A stretch of 64,000 bases of DNA from assembly GCF_056712565.1 (NCBI RefSeq), contig NZ_CM160072.1; one strand, given 5' to 3'. Made by a program: the position numbers and the translations under genes. Shown piece by piece: positions 2,770 to 9,667 of the stretch (within the stretch, counting starts at the first letter, position 1; every line of letters begins with the position of its first letter). The notes under the pieces are model-generated. The model was not told the origin of the DNA. It searched no databases and worked only from the letters and a program-made list of their open reading frames with translations.

Positions 2770-2896
2770 CTTTGTTGCAGGACGCTCCCTCTTCATTACG
2801 TCCTGCACGTGGATACCCCAGCATCTCCATCAGCGGATCTTAGAATGTAATGGCGCGTGGCAGGTCGTTGGTTCCCAGCATAATGTAAGAAAACAT
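2770..2896 (-). pseudogene. Remnant of a VOC/glyoxalase-family gene (short N-terminal frame, then frameshifted continuation)
   Basis: AGGAG SD 6 nt upstream of ATG at 2896; frame reads MFSYIMLGTNDLPRAITF then stop; a shifted frame continues DPLMEMLGYPRAGRNEEGASCNKV. N-terminus resembles VOC proteins. Confidence 0.3.
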
Positions 2897-2933
2897 CGGA
2901 TCTCCTGAATAGATTCAGAGGGAGTATAGATAA

Positions 2934-3194
2934 TCAGCTCAAATCACTCTCCGCTTTATGAGCCCAGGCTGGCATTGCCGTCAGATAACGTTTTGCACGC
3001 TTATGTGCTTCCTCCGGGCCGACTTTTTGCCAGGAATCAAGGAAGCTGGCTAAACCTGATACCGCTTCTTCCCAGGGTTTGAGATTGCCGTTGCTGTCGC
3101 TGCATTACGCACAATATTGATCACTGGCACTGTGTGCATCTGGTGCCGACATCGGCATTCCGCAAGCCTGACAGAACTGTTCATGTTGTGACAT
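2934..3194 (-). pseudogene. Small zinc-ribbon protein gene interrupted by in-frame TAA (possibly the K-12 yjhY-type pseudogene)
   Basis: AAGGAG SD 7 nt upstream of ATG at 3194; frame reads MSQHEQFCQACGMPMSAPDAHSASDQYCA-stop-CSDSNGNLKPWEEAVSGLASFLDSWQKVGPEEAHKRAKRYLTAMPAWAHKAESDLS; the TAA (3105-3107) sits inside the second CxxC pair. Confidence 0.5.
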
Positions 3195-3320
3195 ATGATG
3201 CTCCTTATGGTGACATCTTGATTAATAAACATACTGAATATGTATTGTGCAGGTGATACATCAGATCAAAGCAAAGGTAAAGCCTCGATATTTCCAGCCA
3301 GAAATACCGGGAACCTGTTG

Positions 3321-4067
3321 TTACCGGGCGATGAGTGCGAACACGCCCCAGCCAAAGCATTCCCGCGCGTAGGTCACGTAGCGTTTCGGCGCGATGTTTA
3401 GTTCGGCCCTGACTTCGGCGGCGAAGTCATCGTCAGGATTCGCTTCCAGCCAGCGGCGCATGGTCAGCCATTTTGCGGCTTCATACCGGTCCCAGCCTTC
3501 CTGGTCTGCCAGTACCATTTCCACCACGTCATAGCCGAGATCGTCGAACGCTCCGACAAGTCCTGGCAGCGTCAGGAAATCGCTTGTCGAGCTGACGCCG
3601 CAGGCCTGGGCTATTTCTTCTGTTGCTGGTAGCTGACGCCAGTAGGGTTCGCCGATAAGCATGATCCCGCCCGGTTTCAGGCTTTGCGCTAGCAGCTCCT
3701 CCGCCCCGGCAAACCCACCGGCAATCCATGTCGCGCCGACGCAGGCCGCCACGTCACATTTTTCATTTGCGACGTAACCGGCCGCATCGTTATGAATAAA
3801 ATGTACGCGTTCGCTGACGCCGAGTTCTTCCGCGCGACGCTTTGCCTGCGCGGTGAAGAGCGAACTCATGTCGATGCCAGTCCCCGTAATGCCATGATCC
3901 CTGGCCCAGGTGCAGAGCATCTCGCCCGAGCCGCTGCCGAGGTCAAGAATGCGGGTGCCCGGCTTCATGCGCAGCACGCGACCCAGCGTGGCGTACTTCT
4001 CTTCGGTGAACGGGTTATGGATGCGGTGTTCACTTTCGCTGATGGTAAAAATACGTGGGATATCCAT
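3321..4067 (-). CDS. yjhP: SAM-dependent methyltransferase YjhP (248 aa)
   Basis: ORF with methyltransferase motif I (ILDLGSGSGEM); position matches K-12 yjhP. Confidence 0.8.
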   Translation of the reverse strand: MDIPRIFTISESEHRIHNPFTEEKYATLGRVLRMKPGTRILDLGSGSGEMLCTWARDHGITGTGIDMSSLFTAQAKRRAEELGVSERVHFIHNDAAGYVANEKCDVAACVGATWIAGGFAGAEELLAQSLKPGGIMLIGEPYWRQLPATEEIAQACGVSSTSDFLTLPGLVGAFDDLGYDVVEMVLADQEGWDRYEAAKWLTMRRWLEANPDDDFAAEVRAELNIAPKRYVTYARECFGWGVFALIAR

Positions 4068-4122
4068 TATTTAATTCCTGTTATTGGGTTAAGCCTTAAA
4101 AAGGACACAACAAGATTGTTAT

Positions 4123-4668
4123 TCACGTCAGTGCTCCGGTTTCATCAGGGTCTGCGCACCGGATGTGGCCGGTCAGGGTCATGGGCTGAGCGGTGAGTGA
4201 TTGCATCATCCAGCAGGCTTTGTGCTCCTCCGGGATGGGATAAGGTGCCGGATAGCCTTTGTCTCCGGCACAGGGTTCGAACCCATGTCGGGGGTAATAG
4301 GTGGCGTGGCCGAGAACAAAAACCGTCTGGCAGCCCATCAACCTCAGGTGCTCGATGCCAGTGCGTATCAACCGTCCTCCCACGCCCATCCCTTGGTATT
4401 CCGGTATGAAAGCCAGGGGAGCGAGGATGTGCATCAACGGTGAATCCATTTCTCCTTTGAAGGTTGCCCGGGTAAATAAAATATGCCCGACGGCTTTGCC
4501 TTCATACCGGGCTAGCAGCGATAACGCGGGGCGCGCGCTTTCATCCTCAAGTAAAGAGGCCACTAAATCGGCTTCTTTGCCGAAGCCAAATGCGCGGGTT
4601 TCGACTTCCCGGATATCACTGGCATCACTTTTATCTGTGATATGAAAAGTGAAGTGGTGTACTGTCAT
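4123..4668 (-). CDS. yjhQ: GNAT acetyltransferase YjhQ (putative TopAI antitoxin)
   Basis: 181-aa ORF with GNAT-like core (QGMGVGGRLIRTGIEHL); immediately downstream of topAI. Confidence 0.8.
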   Translation of the reverse strand: MTVHHFTFHITDKSDASDIREVETRAFGFGKEADLVASLLEDESARPALSLLARYEGKAVGHILFTRATFKGEMDSPLMHILAPLAFIPEYQGMGVGGRLIRTGIEHLRLMGCQTVFVLGHATYYPRHGFEPCAGDKGYPAPYPIPEEHKACWMMQSLTAQPMTLTGHIRCADPDETGALT

Positions 4669-4679
4669 AGAAACTCTCC

Positions 4680-4936
4680 TTAGCGATTATCGAGCTGAGC
4701 GCGAACTTTATTCAGCTCGGTGGTGTTGATTCGATAGGGCTGGCCATTGACGGACTTGATAAGTTTTTGGTTTTGAGTTTTTTGAAGACGGCGAGCGTGC
4801 AGTCGGTCAGCAACAGCCCTTCGCGGCTGTAGCATTCAACGGAAGTGACGCGGCCTGAAGAATCGCGGACGTGCGCAATACGTCTACCTTTAGCGAGAAC
4901 GTGTAAGGTATGTTGTTCCTGACGGGATAAATTCAT
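4680..4936 (-). pseudogene. topAI: topAI (yjhX) topoisomerase I inhibitor toxin gene, frameshifted in an A-run
   Basis: ORF 4712-4936 gives [57 protein letters not shown] then diverges; the -1 frame continues [27 protein letters not shown] to TAA at 4680-4682, reconstituting the 85-aa K-12 protein if one A is added to the A5 run near 4765-4769. Confidence 0.7.
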
Positions 4937-5426
4937 ACTGAAGAACCTATTTAATCATCATGTGCAAAACGTGCAAACACACCGCGGTGTCCGCATTCGA
5001 TTTCGGCGCATTGATAATCAGTCCGGCCTGAAAAGGTCGGGGAACTGATTATCGGATGATTACATTCTCCAGCATCAAAGCCTCGGGTTGAGTTGAAAGG
5101 TATTTACGGAGCGAATATTAACACGTAGTTATAGGAGGGATATGTTTCAGTAGAAAAAGTGTGATGTACTTTGGAAATTGAATGCCAACCCATTTACTGG
5201 AAAAGGCAGATGACACTGACGAATGCATGTTGAAGTACGCCTGAAATGGCCTCATCGGCTTTTCCCTTCGGGAGATTATTCTCCTTTTGTTAAATCCAGA
5301 ACATAAATATGCTCACCCATATTCGATGCTTGAAAAATTGAAGCCAATCCTGATAAGTAATTTTTTTGAAAGGGTATTTTCCGGATTCACACCGGCTTTG
5401 ATGAGTGAAAAACCGTTCTCTTTTAT

Positions 5427-5600
5427 TCAGTCAATCGTGGCGGTAATTGCTTCAATTGCATATCCCTGGCGAGCATAAGCGGGACTGATGGTATAGCCGA
5501 GCCAAAACACATCGCATTGCTGACGTAAATAGATATCACCAATCAAAACCTGCGTCATTTGTTGACAATGGCCAATTGAATATCGCGAGCAAGTGTAAGA
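5427..5600 (-). pseudogene. C-terminal fragment of a GNAT/RimJ-like acetyltransferase (possibly yjhZ-type pseudogene)
   Basis: Minus frame reads ...IGHCQQMTQVLIGDIYLRQQCDVFWLGYTISPAYARQGYAIEAITATID-stop (TGA at 5427-5429); GNAT-like C-terminal motif with no intact N-terminus. Confidence 0.3.
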
Positions 5601-5897
5601 ACTCCCAGCAAGACCCTGTAAATAATTCTGTGTAACTGCCCACGATTAAAGGTGGCCGCTCAGGCGGTCACCGTATTCGATAATAAATGGGTCTGGAAAA
5701 AGTGCAGCATCTGGCAGCGTAATGCAGGTAGCCCAGTTCAACTCTCACTACCAGTATGATCCCAAGTTCGAGCGCGGAATGTATCTGTATGAGCATCGTC
5801 GCTGTTTCAATAACATCATCGACTACTGTAACTCACTTTGCTATCACGGTAAGTTGCAGCCTAAAAGAGGGATGGAAAAAGGACGATTTTCCCCGCA

Positions 5898-6914
5898 ATG
5901 GGATATTTACATATTGATGGTAGAGGCATGAAGCCAAATGGAGGGAGCCGTCATAACCCTCTTGAAGCTGAAACAATAGCAGCATGGCTGGTGGCACATA
6001 AGGATGATATAGAGCGCCATTACGGGGAACCACTGTACAAAGTTGTTGGTGTTGTGACGCCATTTTCGGCGCAGGTTAATGCTATCAAAATGTCATTGCG
6101 TAAGCTGGAAATTAATGGCAAAGACGAGCAGGGTTTACTGACAGTGGGGACTGTGCACTCCTTGCAGGGGGCGGAAAGGGCGATTGTTCTCTTTTCTCCT
6201 GTCTACTCAAAACATGAAGATGGCAGGTTTCTTGATAGCAACAGCACTATCCTCAATGTTGCTGTCTCACGCGCTAAAGATAGTTTTCTGGTATTTGGCG
6301 ATATGGACCTTATCGAGATGCAGCCCGCATTTTCGCCGCGAGGGTTATTGGCAAAATATCTCTTTTCTTCAGATAATAATGCGTTGCAATTTGAGTTTCA
6401 GAAACGACAGGATTTAATTTCCGCACATACACAAATTTCAACGCTGCATGGTGTGGAGCAGCATGATGAATTTTTGAACAAGACTCTTGCCGGAGCTCAA
6501 AAGAAAATAACGATTATTTCCCCTTGGTTATCCTGGCAAAAAGTGGAGCAAACGGGATTTCTGGCATCAATGGCTTTGGCCCGTTCCCGGGGCATTGATA
6601 TTACCGTGGTGACGGATAAAAACTGCAATATAGCGCATGTCGATGATGATAAGCGTCAGGAGAAACAACATCTGCTGAATGATGCTGTTGAAAAGCTCAA
6701 TAAGATGGGTATCGCTACGAAATTGGTTAATCGTGTTCACAGCAAAATTGTGATTGAGGATGAAGAACTGCTGTGTGTCGGATCTTTTAACTGGTTCAGT
6801 GCTACACGGGAAGATAAGTATCAACGATACGATACGTCTTTGGTGTACCGTGGTGAAGGCGTAAAAAATGAAATAAAGGCAATATATGGTAGTCTGGATC
6901 AACGTCAGCTTTAA
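5898..6914 (+). CDS. yjhR: YjhR-like protein: C-terminal SF1 helicase motifs fused to a PLD-like domain; likely remnant of a larger gene
   Basis: 338-aa ORF with helicase C-terminal motifs ([22 protein letters not shown]) followed by a PLD-like region ([24 protein letters not shown]); upstream 5722-5931 frame has further helicase-like sequence in another frame. Confidence 0.6.
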
Positions 6915-7496: not shown

Positions 7497-8477
7497 TCAC
7501 CTTTCGCGCCAAAACTGCAAAATTGCTTCTACAAATCTGTCAGAAATAATCCCCCGACGGGCTGCAGTGCTGAAATGACTGCTTCGCAGTGCCGTCGTCC
7601 AGTTCTCCGGTGACCGGTACGCTGAACCGTAATATCCCGTGCTTAAATCGTCCGGGTCTTCATCAGGCGCGTTCGTCAGTCCTCTTTCACCTTGTTGCTG
7701 GAAGTCGACGAAAATAATATTGGCTAAAACATTATTTTGATAATTGCCATAAATAGCTTCATACGAATGCGGGAAATTTTCTTTCCAGTACCAGGTGGTA
7801 TCGCCGCAAAACCACGGCGCGTCAGTAATATTATTAAGCTGAGAATGGTATTGTTTTAGATCCCTACGAAAGGCTTCAACCATATGATTAAAGTGTTGAG
7901 GGTGTGACGCGTAGTCACTGGTCATTAAGTCAAATTCGCCTTGCATCCAGCATGCGCCGAGGAATTTGTTCTGCGGATTTTTTGCCAGTGCGGCTCGCGT
8001 TCTGCTGACTAAATCCTGGTACAGCGGAGTATCCGTTCCCCAACGACAAGCATCATGGCTGGCTCCGTGCCGTTCTGAATATGTCCCTTCGCTGCCCGCG
8101 GTAAAAGCCGATCCGCCACGGCAACACGGAACGATAAGAATCCCTGCATTATCAGGAATGAAGGGCAGTAATTTCCGTGCAATATGCAGTGCCTGGCCAA
8201 CGGTGCCGTACTGTGTTTGATGATTCGTTGCCAGAGGATGGTGATAACCCTGCATATCCTGAACATCGTGTGGGCAGTGAGTCAGTGGAATAATGTCGTT
8301 AAAGTGACATGGCGGGCCTCCGGGATGCGTATGCGCAAATCTCGCTAATTGTTTAATTCTGGGATGAGGCGCATCTTCCCTGTCCGGTAATGGCAGTCCT
8401 TCGCCATACGCCATGGCATTAGACTGACCAGCAACGGTAAGAACATAGTAATAATCGGGCGATATTATTGCGTTCAT
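7497..8477 (-). CDS. nanS: N-acetyl-9-O-acetylneuraminate esterase NanS (YjhS)
   Basis: ORF 7497-8504; start set at MNAIISPDYYYVLTVAGQSNAMAYG to give 326 aa; downstream of nanM/nanC. Confidence 0.8.
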   Translation of the reverse strand: MNAIISPDYYYVLTVAGQSNAMAYGEGLPLPDREDAPHPRIKQLARFAHTHPGGPPCHFNDIIPLTHCPHDVQDMQGYHHPLATNHQTQYGTVGQALHIARKLLPFIPDNAGILIVPCCRGGSAFTAGSEGTYSERHGASHDACRWGTDTPLYQDLVSRTRAALAKNPQNKFLGACWMQGEFDLMTSDYASHPQHFNHMVEAFRRDLKQYHSQLNNITDAPWFCGDTTWYWKENFPHSYEAIYGNYQNNVLANIIFVDFQQQGERGLTNAPDEDPDDLSTGYYGSAYRSPENWTTALRSSHFSTAARRGIISDRFVEAILQFWRER

Positions 8478-8541
8478 ATAAATTTCGCGTAATTGAAATG
8501 ACAAATTGATAGCAGGGCCCCTTTACCGGGGCCCTGAAGCG

Positions 8542-9648
8542 TTAGTTTTGTACTGTGACTTTATTATCCTTCACAGTGATCAAAACTGAATCCGTCACCG
8601 CTTTGCCGCCTGCAGTTTCACCGCCAATAATCAATAGACTATTATTCCAGGGCAATGATACTCCGTAGGCCCGACCTTGCGATAATTCACCCGATTTATC
8701 CCATTTCCCGTTATGCCAAAGATGAATATCAGTGCTATATGATTTTTTCAGGCCTTCATGCGCATAGTTCTTACCGTTCTGGTAATTTTCTCGTGAACCT
8801 TTGAATCCGGCCCCTCCGGCAAATATAAGAGAATCATTGCTTATCCCCGCAAAACCGCCAGCTACGCCATCTGGTGATGAGACGGGAGCAAGCTTATTCC
8901 ATTTTAAATTATTACCGGTGAAATCAAGTTCAAATACGGCATCCGTTCGCAATCCTGGTTTGGCTTCGCCATTAATAAGCCAGGTTTTATCACCTTTATT
9001 CACAACCGCCGCACCAGCCGTTCCGTACCAGGGCGATTCGCCAGCGTAACTCCATTGCTGTGTTGAGGGATCAAAAGACAACAGAAACTTATTGAAGAAA
9101 TAATCTTCTGCTTTTTTGTCAAAATAGTGAGCATTGATTTTATCTATAGCGGTTGAATCTTTTCCAGCCTCGTTGAGATCTTCAAAATAGCCATTGAAGA
9201 TATTCTGGTTAACACCACCAGTAACATAAGCCTTGCCGTTGTGTACAAAAGTCACATGGCCCGCCATGCCCATCGGCGCGTGCGACATCAATTTAACCCA
9301 ACTATTGGTTTTGGGGTTGTATTTGTGTACGTCATTAAATACCTGAGTCAAGCCCTCGCTGTTTTTGCCAATGCCGCCAAACACATACAGATTGCCATCA
9401 ATAAATGCAGAGGTTGCTTGATCTCTTGGTCCGCCAGGGAATGCAGCTAACGCTGTCCATTTTTTATCTTTGGCCTGTGTATCCAGCTTGTACCATGCCG
9501 TACCTGCGCTACCTAAACCAATGTAGACAGTGTCGTTATCAATTGCTCCGGTACCACTTTTAAATGGCACAGGAGTTTCCGGTAATACAGATGCGTTTGC
9601 GGCAAATGAAGCCATCATGATAGCAAGCGCCGTTATTGTTTTATTCAT
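8542..9648 (-). CDS. nanM: N-acetylneuraminate mutarotase NanM (YjhT), Kelch-repeat periplasmic protein
   Basis: ORF 8542-9756; start set at MNKTITALAIMMASFAANA (signal peptide) for 368 aa; repeated Kelch-like GG/W motifs. Confidence 0.85.
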   Translation of the reverse strand: MNKTITALAIMMASFAANASVLPETPVPFKSGTGAIDNDTVYIGLGSAGTAWYKLDTQAKDKKWTALAAFPGGPRDQATSAFIDGNLYVFGGIGKNSEGLTQVFNDVHKYNPKTNSWVKLMSHAPMGMAGHVTFVHNGKAYVTGGVNQNIFNGYFEDLNEAGKDSTAIDKINAHYFDKKAEDYFFNKFLLSFDPSTQQWSYAGESPWYGTAGAAVVNKGDKTWLINGEAKPGLRTDAVFELDFTGNNLKWNKLAPVSSPDGVAGGFAGISNDSLIFAGGAGFKGSRENYQNGKNYAHEGLKKSYSTDIHLWHNGKWDKSGELSQGRAYGVSLPWNNSLLIIGGETAGGKAVTDSVLITVKDNKVTVQN

Positions 9649-9667
9649 TGTGACTGTCTCCTGTCTA

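What the first reader, a model, noticed from the sequence alone, without database searches (positions are those of the whole stretch)
5427..5600. GNAT acetyltransferase C-terminal remnant between topAI and yjhR
The minus-strand frame ends with a GNAT-like motif (AYARQGYAIEAITATID) but has no intact N-terminus. Together with the VOC, zinc-ribbon, topAI and helicase remnants, it marks the 2.5-7 kb stretch as a decaying island edge.
Basis: partly seen in the sequence, partly recalled or inferred. Interest (0 to 1): 0.25.

Follow-up and report, generated by a model that had tools for sequence, protein, structure and literature searches.

The report
Known dead acetyltransferase gene remnant (yjhZ)
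This is the already catalogued E. coli pseudogene yjhZ, the broken rear two-thirds of a small acetyltransferase gene whose front was cut off next to an insertion-sequence scar; it is ordinary gene decay inside an old genomic island.

Summary
The 43-codon minus-strand ORF at 5427-5558 is part of the E. coli K-12 pseudogene yjhZ (b4657); the window is 750/751 identical to K-12 across this locus.

The full remnant is 5276-5611 (-). It corresponds to codons 48-158 plus the natural stop of a 158-aa Acetyltransf_3 (RimJ/RimL-like) GNAT. That gene is intact in Enterobacter, Citrobacter, Klebsiella, Salmonella and 8 of 5,426 complete E. coli genomes, at 91-96% DNA identity.

The window copy has four lesions:
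- loss of the first 141 nt;
- a 1-nt deletion at 5559/5558;
- a TGG>TGA nonsense codon at 5429-5427, which makes the frame "end" at ...TATID;
- a 1-nt insertion at about 5316-5319.

The 5' break directly abuts a 77-bp right-end remnant of an IS256-family (ISEc39-like) element at 5612-5688. That remnant in turn abuts the 5'-truncated helicase pseudogene yjhR.

The segment 2790-5611 is a doubly truncated copy of a conserved island module: VOC, GNAT, topAI, yjhQ, yjhP, Zn-ribbon, VOC. The "decaying island" reading is therefore supported. This is a known pseudogene of low interest; the IS scar and the lesion order are small additions.

The parts
5276..5611 (-). Full extent of the yjhZ pseudogene remnant: codons 48-158 plus the natural stop of a 158-codon Acetyltransf_3 GNAT gene
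   Evidence: blastn and MAFFT against intact genes in L004, L005, L008, L010 and L011. Repaired translation scores 46.9 bits on Pfam PF13302, profile 52-138 of 138.
5427..5558 (-). It holds the acetyl-CoA-binding motif-A region ...PAYARQGYAIEA...
5427..5429 (-). Premature TGA; the codon is TGG (Trp) in all intact orthologues and in 742 E. coli genomes
   Evidence: Alignments. Allele counts: TGA 911 genomes, TGG 742 genomes.
5558..5559 (-). Site of a 1-nt deletion (AACAAGATG > AACAAATG) that shifts the frame between codons 65 and 66
   Evidence: Allele counts: deletion 914 genomes, undeleted 368 genomes.
5316..5319 (-). Site of a 1-nt insertion (GAAGA-GGGTGAG > GAAGATGGGTGAG). It creates the TGA at 5313-5315 that ends the K-12 yjhZ annotation.
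   Evidence: Alignments. Present in all four truncated E. coli copies examined (window, K-12, R8, 1162T7).
5276..5278 (-). Natural TAA stop of the ancestral gene (...GEHIYVLDLTKGE*), back in the original frame after the -1 and +1 changes
5612..5688 (-). 77-bp right-end remnant of an IS256-family (ISEc39-like) insertion sequence: the terminal inverted repeat plus the last 13 transposase codons (FIIEYGDRLSGHL*). Its outer terminus directly abuts yjhZ nt 142.
   Evidence: 98.7% identical to an IS256-family fragment in strain IMT16316 and 88% to ISEc39 of CFT073. Flanks diverge exactly at GACCCTGTAAAT.
5689..6914 (+). yjhR pseudogene: a C-terminal fragment (about aa 766-1172 of a 1172-aa AAA_11/AAA_12/PLDc_2 helicase) with an internal frameshift near 5880-5895
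   Evidence: tblastn against the L005 helicase; PGAP annotation; K-12 b4308
2790..5611 (-). Truncated copy of the conserved island module (GNAT', toiL-topAI, yjhQ, yjhP, Zn-ribbon', VOC'). It is cut inside the GNAT at one end and inside the VOC gene at the other.
   Evidence: Single blastn block, 94.2% identity over 2827 nt to L004 and L005 positions 8142-10967; gene content
4679..4936 (-). topAI (yjhX) toxin gene immediately downstream. In this window it is frameshifted by loss of one A from an A6 run at about 4763.
   Evidence: no complete E. coli genome shares the allele
5049..5075 (-). toiL leader uORF (MLENVIIR*) of topAI, 139 nt upstream of the topAI start. The topAI transcription start lies about 171 nt upstream (about 5107), and so roughly 170 nt downstream of the yjhZ stop.
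   Evidence: Sequence; positions from PMC12121999

Best explanation
The feature is the non-functional relic of a 158-codon RimJ/RimL-like (Pfam Acetyltransf_3) GNAT acetyltransferase gene. It is the E. coli K-12 pseudogene yjhZ (b4657), in the distal part of the KpLE2 island.

In intact islands of other enterobacteria, and in a few E. coli, this gene sits about 340 nt upstream of toiL-topAI-yjhQ-yjhP on the same strand. It belongs to a conserved cargo module: VOC, GNAT, topAI, yjhQ, yjhP, Zn-ribbon, VOC.

In the E. coli lineage represented here, the first 141 nt with the start codon and upstream signals are gone. The break coincides exactly with the outer end of an IS256-family element. Only 77 bp of that element survive, and its inner break is joined to a 5'-truncated helicase gene (yjhR).

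The inferred history is as follows:
1. An IS256-family element inserted at, or caused an adjacent deletion up to, yjhZ nt 141/142.
2. A later deletion removed most of the IS together with everything up to codon ~765 of yjhR.
3. The relic carries three further disabling changes: +1 insertion, -1 deletion and TGG>TGA.

No acetyltransferase can be made from it. The remnant lacks the first 47 residues (Pfam profile positions 1-51), which in GNATs form the N-terminal strand and helices. It also has no start or ribosome-binding context of its own.

Shown here: identity with yjhZ, homology, the lesions, the IS junction and the population frequencies. Inferred: the order and mechanism of the rearrangements, and the absence of function.
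For: **Identity with K-12 yjhZ.** The locus is 750/751 identical, and b4657 is annotated as a pseudogene.

**Intact homologues.** 158-aa proteins occur in Enterobacter, Klebsiella, Citrobacter and Salmonella. Their Pfam Acetyltransf_3 match covers the full profile, 1-138. Divergent intact pairs have dN/dS of 0.2-0.4, so the intact gene is under constraint.

**Homology and lesions.** DNA homology starts at gene nt 142, which is window 5611. The lesions are mapped.

**IS256-family end.**
- The junction segment matches IS256-family elements.
- It aligns from the exact IS terminus, and the flanks differ in all three loci compared.
- ISEc39 in CFT073 has the matching terminal inverted repeat at both ends.
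- The segment encodes the transposase C-terminal peptide FIIEYGDRLSGHL*.

**Population survey of 5,426 complete E. coli genomes.**
- 1,657 carry the gene, and only 8 carry it full length.
- 1,278 share the yjhZ'-IS'-yjhR' junction.
- TGA allele 911 versus TGG 742.
- -1 allele 914 versus undeleted 368.
- The near-equal counts suggest that the TGA and the -1 deletion occur together on one derived haplotype, added on top of a shared truncation. Co-occurrence was seen directly only in the window and K-12.
- Other strains show further decay, such as an ISEc52 insertion that removes more of the gene.

**Other checks.** There is no Rfam match and no promoter-like site on the minus strand in or around the relic.
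Against: - Nothing contradicts pseudogene status.
- PGAP still calls the 43-codon ORF a protein (WP_001309182.1), and longer ORFs of 81-99 aa exist in other strains. Translation of a fragment has not been excluded experimentally.
- The two-step IS scenario cannot be verified, because the other IS junction and any target-site duplication are deleted.
- In the Enterobacter loci the related helicase is only 75% identical and lies on the other side of the module. The ancestral E. coli arrangement is therefore unknown.
Confidence: 0.95

Rival explanations
1. The 43-codon ORF, or the 81-99-aa versions in other strains, is expressed as a small protein with a new function, for example a truncated GNAT fragment that binds acetyl-CoA or interacts with TopAI/YjhQ.
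For: PGAP annotates it as a CDS. The ORF retains the motif-A region. A small protein gene, ythB, is annotated in the same region.
Against: - There is no Shine-Dalgarno-like sequence before the ATG (sequence) and no promoter-like site on that strand.
- The ORF boundaries are set by a frameshift and a nonsense mutation found in only about 55% of carriers, so the ORF is not conserved as such.
- The Pfam profile positions 1-51 and 106-138 are missing from the ORF.
- Other strains delete more of it.
Confidence: 0.03
2. The relic persists because its DNA serves as upstream regulatory sequence for the toiL-topAI-yjhQP promoter.
For: It lies on the same strand, and its stop is about 170 nt upstream of the topAI transcription start. 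[quoted passage not shown]
Against: No element was detected. Strain 1162T7 retains topAI with an IS3-family element replacing most of the relic. The same spacing exists where the GNAT gene is intact, so position alone explains the proximity.
Confidence: 0.04
3. The GNAT-like motif is a chance resemblance in non-coding DNA.
For: The 43-aa ORF alone is below Pfam's gathering score.
Against: The relic is 94-96% identical in DNA to intact genes over 336 nt. Protein matches reach E=1e-41 to 1e-45. The repaired relic is above the Pfam cut-off.
Confidence: 0.005

Closest known systems
[quoted passage not shown]
   Same: It is the same locus, between topAI and yjhR. The surrounding 751 nt are 750/751 identical, with the same truncation, -1 deletion, TGA and +1 insertion.
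   Different: One substitution at window 5321 changes Asp to Tyr in the dead frame. The K-12 annotation covers only window 5313-5558, whereas homology runs from 5276 to 5611.
Intact 158-aa island GNAT (e.g. P0007 from Enterobacter, P0009 from Klebsiella pasteurii, P0018 from Citrobacter cronae, WP_112920515.1 in E. coli R2)
   Same: It is the orthologous gene at 91-96% DNA identity. It occupies the same position upstream of topAI in the same module.
   Different: The intact genes have all 158 codons and a VOC gene upstream. The window copy lacks codons 1-47 and carries three more lesions.
RimJ / RimL ribosomal-protein N-acetyltransferases and the structural-genomics GNAT 3fbu
   Same: They share the Pfam Acetyltransf_3 subfamily. 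The nearest solved structures are 3fbu (E=1e-8), 2fck and 3igr, the last a RimJ.
   Different: The relic is not an equivalog. NCBIfam RimJ scores 21.6-24.3 bits against a cut-off of 190. The substrate of the intact family is unknown.
ISEc39 (IS256 family) of E. coli CFT073
   Same: The right terminal inverted repeat and the transposase C-terminus match window 5612-5688 at 88% identity. An IS256-family fragment in strain IMT16316 matches at 98.7%.
   Different: Only 77 bp of an element of about 1.3 kb survive. No full-length copy of the exact IS type was found here.

Membership tests
K-12 yjhZ pseudogene (b4657) | Same sequence and same position between topAI and yjhR | tested here: met
   750/751 identity over 751 nt. 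The b4657 coordinates map to window 5313-5558.
GNAT superfamily, Pfam Acetyltransf_3 (PF13302) | Domain score above the gathering threshold (25.4 bits) | tested here: met
   The repaired 111-aa remnant scores 46.9 bits. The 43-aa ORF alone scores 20.7 bits and the 71-aa frame 21.7 bits, both below the cut-off.
GNAT superfamily, Pfam Acetyltransf_3 (PF13302) | Acetyl-CoA-binding motif A (Q/R-x-x-G-x-G/A loop) | tested here: met
   The sequence A-R-Q-G-Y-A (ARQGYA) aligns with F-N-K-G-Y-A of 3fbu. The G-x-A core is present. The first position is non-canonical, as it is in 3fbu.
GNAT superfamily, Pfam Acetyltransf_3 (PF13302) | Complete domain, including the N-terminal part (profile positions 1-51) | tested here: not met
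   The remnant covers only profile positions 52-138, whereas intact P0007 covers 1-138. DNA homology begins at gene nt 142.
Functional protein-coding gene | Uninterrupted reading frame with its own start | tested here: not met
   5' truncation, -1 deletion, TGA nonsense and +1 insertion.
RimJ (ribosomal protein S5-alanine N-acetyltransferase, NCBIfam NF008072) | Score above the equivalog cut-off (190 bits) | tested here: not met
   21.6 bits for intact P0007 and 24.3 bits for the repaired remnant.
IS256-family insertion sequence (junction segment 5612-5688) | Terminal inverted repeat and transposase sequence matching a family member, starting at the element's terminus | tested here: met
   The segment aligns from the terminus GACCCTGTAAAT..., and the flanks diverge in three loci. 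ISEc39 has an inverted repeat at 2505-2529 and 3786-3810 of L013. C-terminal peptide FIIEYGDRLSGHL* compares with FIIEFGDRLSEHL*.
IS256-family insertion sequence (junction segment 5612-5688) | Complete element with transposase, both ends and a target-site duplication | tested here: not met
   Only 77 bp remain. The inner side joins yjhR at about 5689.

The most novel reading that the evidence does not exclude
The intact 158-aa GNAT may be a working part of an antibiotic-responsive cargo module. The module is VOC, GNAT, toiL-topAI, yjhQ, yjhP, Zn-ribbon, VOC, and it rides on enterobacterial defence islands. The topAI operon is induced by ribosome-targeting antibiotics through toiL. The GNAT might acetylate a drug or a TopAI-related target. 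Most E. coli would then have lost that component through an IS256-mediated deletion that no current K-12 annotation records. The evidence here shows only conserved synteny and moderate purifying selection on the intact gene.
Probability: 0.1. Interest if true: 0.35.

Novelty: already known. Interest (0 to 1): 0.08.

Why it matters
It matters little. The finding re-identifies a catalogued K-12 pseudogene.

It has some use for annotation:
- The relic is 336 nt (5276-5611). The K-12 annotation covers 246 nt, and PGAP calls only a 43-codon CDS.
- The unannotated 77 bp between yjhZ' and yjhR' is an IS256-family end. That explains why two divergent genes both lack their 5' parts.
- The lesions are layered. 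The truncation and the +1 insertion are present in every truncated copy examined. The -1 deletion and the TGA each occur in about 910 of 1,657 carrier genomes. They could serve as lineage markers.
- The work also places the well-studied toiL-topAI-yjhQP operon inside a larger conserved island module, of which E. coli K-12 keeps only a clipped copy.

Tried and rejected
- **Pfam on the ORF alone.** The match is sub-threshold, so it was not used as proof. It was replaced by homologue and DNA comparisons.
- **Frameshift at the ...TATID end.** I first suspected one. The translation shows an in-frame TGA instead.
- **Rfam scan of 4600-6000.** No match.
- **Promoter and terminator scan of 4900-5950.** Nothing on the minus strand within the relic. 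The hairpins at the yjhZ stop are on the plus strand and weak.
- **Search for a full-length copy of the exact IS type, using the IMT16316 fragment.** The rows listed (25 of 1,627 matching records) showed only matches to the 200-nt fragment annotated as IS256 family transposase, none opened to check its length; no full-length element was identified. Family assignment therefore rests on ISEc39 at 88% identity.
- **Deriving the E. coli yjhR/yjhZ arrangement from the Enterobacter loci by one deletion.** Rejected. That helicase is only 75% identical and lies on the opposite side of the module.
- **Literature on yjhZ.** The only relevant mention is a table entry giving the EcoCyc name. A search for KpLE2 together with yjhR found nothing.
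- **dN/dS on the relic itself.** Not attempted formally, because only about six lineage-specific substitutions exist and the test would have no power.

Full report
**1. What is at the coordinates**

On the minus strand, an ATG-initiated ORF runs from 5558 to a TGA at 5429-5427. It encodes MTQVLIGDIYLRQQCDVFWLGYTISPAYARQGYAIEAITATID.
- The ORF alone gives only a sub-threshold Pfam match to Acetyltransf_3 (20.7 bits against a cut-off of 25.4).
- In near-identical E. coli genomes, PGAP calls the same 43 codons WP_001309182.1. It names the product either 'GNAT family N-acetyltransferase' or 'hypothetical protein'.

**2. Identity with a known feature**

The window is E. coli.
- K-12 MG1655 annotates the pseudogene yjhZ (b4657) between topAI and the pseudogene yjhR. 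Its coordinates map to window 5313-5558.
- The 751 nt around it are 750/751 identical to the window. The single difference is at 5321.
- KpLE2 is the leuX-associated island that carries the fec and sgc genes (PMC3032704).

**3. The intact gene and the true extent of the relic**

A search with a repaired 91-aa translation found intact 158-aa GNATs in Enterobacter, Klebsiella pasteurii, Citrobacter cronae and Salmonella enterica (82-89% identity, E=1e-37 to 1e-42). It also found many shorter E. coli fragments.
- The intact protein matches the whole Acetyltransf_3 profile, 1-138, at 66.4 bits.
- Its nearest solved relatives are 3fbu, 2fck and the RimJ structure 3igr.
- It is far below the NCBIfam RimJ cut-off.
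- Divergent intact orthologues have dN/dS of 0.2-0.4, so the intact gene is a real, constrained gene.

DNA alignment shows that homology to the gene runs from nt 142 to the stop. This corresponds to window 5611 down to 5276.

**4. Lesions in the window copy**

- (i) Codons 1-47 and everything upstream are lost.
- (ii) One nucleotide is deleted between 5559 and 5558 (AACAAGATG > AACAAATG).
- (iii) TGG has changed to TGA at 5429-5427.
- (iv) One nucleotide is inserted at about 5316-5319 (GAAGA-GGG > GAAGATGGG).

The -1 and +1 changes cancel. With these three lesions repaired, the 111-aa translation scores 46.9 bits on Acetyltransf_3, profile positions 52-138.

**5. Cause of the 5' truncation**

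The 77 bp between the yjhZ break (5611) and the start of yjhR homology (about 5689) match IS256-family elements.
- The match is 98.7% to a fragment in strain IMT16316 and 88% to ISEc39 of CFT073.
- The three-way alignment starts exactly at GACCCTGTAAAT (window 5612), and all three flanks differ there.
- ISEc39 carries this sequence as its terminal inverted repeat at both ends.
- The window segment encodes the transposase C-terminus FIIEYGDRLSGHL* followed by its stop, compared with FIIEFGDRLSEHL* in ISEc39.

The outer end of an IS256-family element therefore sits flush against yjhZ nt 142. The element itself is broken 77 bp inside, and that break is joined to yjhR. What survives of yjhR is roughly residues 766-1172 of a 1172-aa AAA_11/AAA_12/PLD helicase, with its own frameshift.

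The most economical history is an IS insertion at nt 141/142, or an IS-adjacent deletion up to that point. A later deletion would then have run from inside the IS into yjhR. This order is inferred and was not observed.

**6. Context**

In Enterobacter, Citrobacter and a few E. coli, the intact gene belongs to a conserved module:
- VOC (130 aa)
- GNAT (158 aa)
- topAI
- yjhQ
- yjhP
- Zn-ribbon
- VOC (133 aa)

The module lies in islands that also carry YagK/YfjJ and AlpA-like genes, and often defence systems such as BREX, type I R-M and TIR.

The window's 2790-5611 is one block, 94.2% identical to this module. It is cut inside the GNAT at one end and inside the distal VOC gene at the other. PGAP marks as pseudogenes the VOC gene, a hypothetical protein with an internal stop (at the position of K-12 yjhY and of the module's Zn-ribbon gene), yjhR and a restriction-endonuclease fragment.

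The well-studied toiL uORF lies at 5075-5049, and the topAI transcription start lies about 171 nt upstream of topAI (PMC12121999). Both are downstream of the relic and do not overlap it.

**7. Population picture**

Among 5,426 complete E. coli genomes:
- 1,657 carry the gene. Only 8 have it full length, and the two of these examined lie in different island contexts.
- 1,278 carry the same yjhZ'-IS'-yjhR' junction.
- The TGA allele is in 911 genomes and the TGG allele in 742.
- The -1 allele is in 914 genomes and the undeleted allele in 368.
- The remaining carriers have lost that part. In strain 1162T7, for example, an ISEc52 replaces it.

The truncation and the +1 insertion are shared by all truncated copies examined. 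The -1 deletion and the TGA were each found in about 910 genomes, which suggests a single later haplotype; they co-occur in the window and K-12, the two copies of that type I compared directly. One metagenomic protein (P0001) has the E. coli-type +1 ending but retains codons 22-47, which hints that the +1 came before the truncation.

**8. Other checks**

No Rfam family matches 4600-6000. There is no promoter-like site on the minus strand in the relic.

**9. Verdict**

The feature is a known pseudogene with no plausible function. The added details are the IS256 scar, the full extent of the relic, the layering of the lesions and their frequencies. Interest is low.

Noticed in passing
window 4679-4936 (-), change at about 4763: The topAI toxin gene carries a 1-nt deletion (an A6 run shortened to A5). 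This shifts the frame after codon 57, giving ...[12 protein letters not shown]... in place of ...[14 protein letters not shown].... K-12 and the otherwise near-identical strains E10 and 104 have A6. None of 5,426 complete E. coli genomes has the A5 allele. It could be a private inactivating mutation of the toxin or a homopolymer sequencing error.
   Followed up: yes
window 5612-5688: An unannotated 77-bp IS256-family (ISEc39-like) end remnant lies between yjhZ' and yjhR'. The RefSeq K-12 feature table lists nothing there. PGAP's yjhR pseudogene start at 5674 runs into it.
   Followed up: yes
hits H110-H121 (next to djlA in many E. coli genomes): A 60-nt stretch 91.7% identical to the same IS256-family end (window 5612-5671) sits beside djlA in many E. 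coli chromosomes. It looks like another solitary IS-end scar.
   Followed up: no
L004 11738-16477; L010 13470-18480; L011 13969-18480: The intact VOC-GNAT-topAI-yjhQ-yjhP module travels in islands next to defence systems. These include BREX brxA/B/C, a TIR-domain protein with a WYL regulator, and type I restriction-modification.
   Followed up: partly
L010 10082-10792 (E. coli R2): In this intact-GNAT island, the gene after the YjhX toxin is a class I SAM-dependent methyltransferase rather than the YjhQ GNAT antitoxin. The toxin's partner may therefore vary between islands.
   Followed up: no
L014 1621-2168, L015 2397-2944 and L011 10086-10633: In several E. coli strains (R8, 1162T7, A41) the antitoxin gene yjhQ is annotated as frameshifted while topAI is intact. 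That is the reverse of the situation in this window.
   Followed up: no
window 7497-8504 (-): The window has a full-length nanS-like ORF of 335 codons from a TTG start. Strains E10 and 104 differ from the window by only 2 mismatches and 1 gap over 8.5 kb, yet they are annotated with a partial sialate O-acetylesterase pseudogene there.
   Followed up: partly
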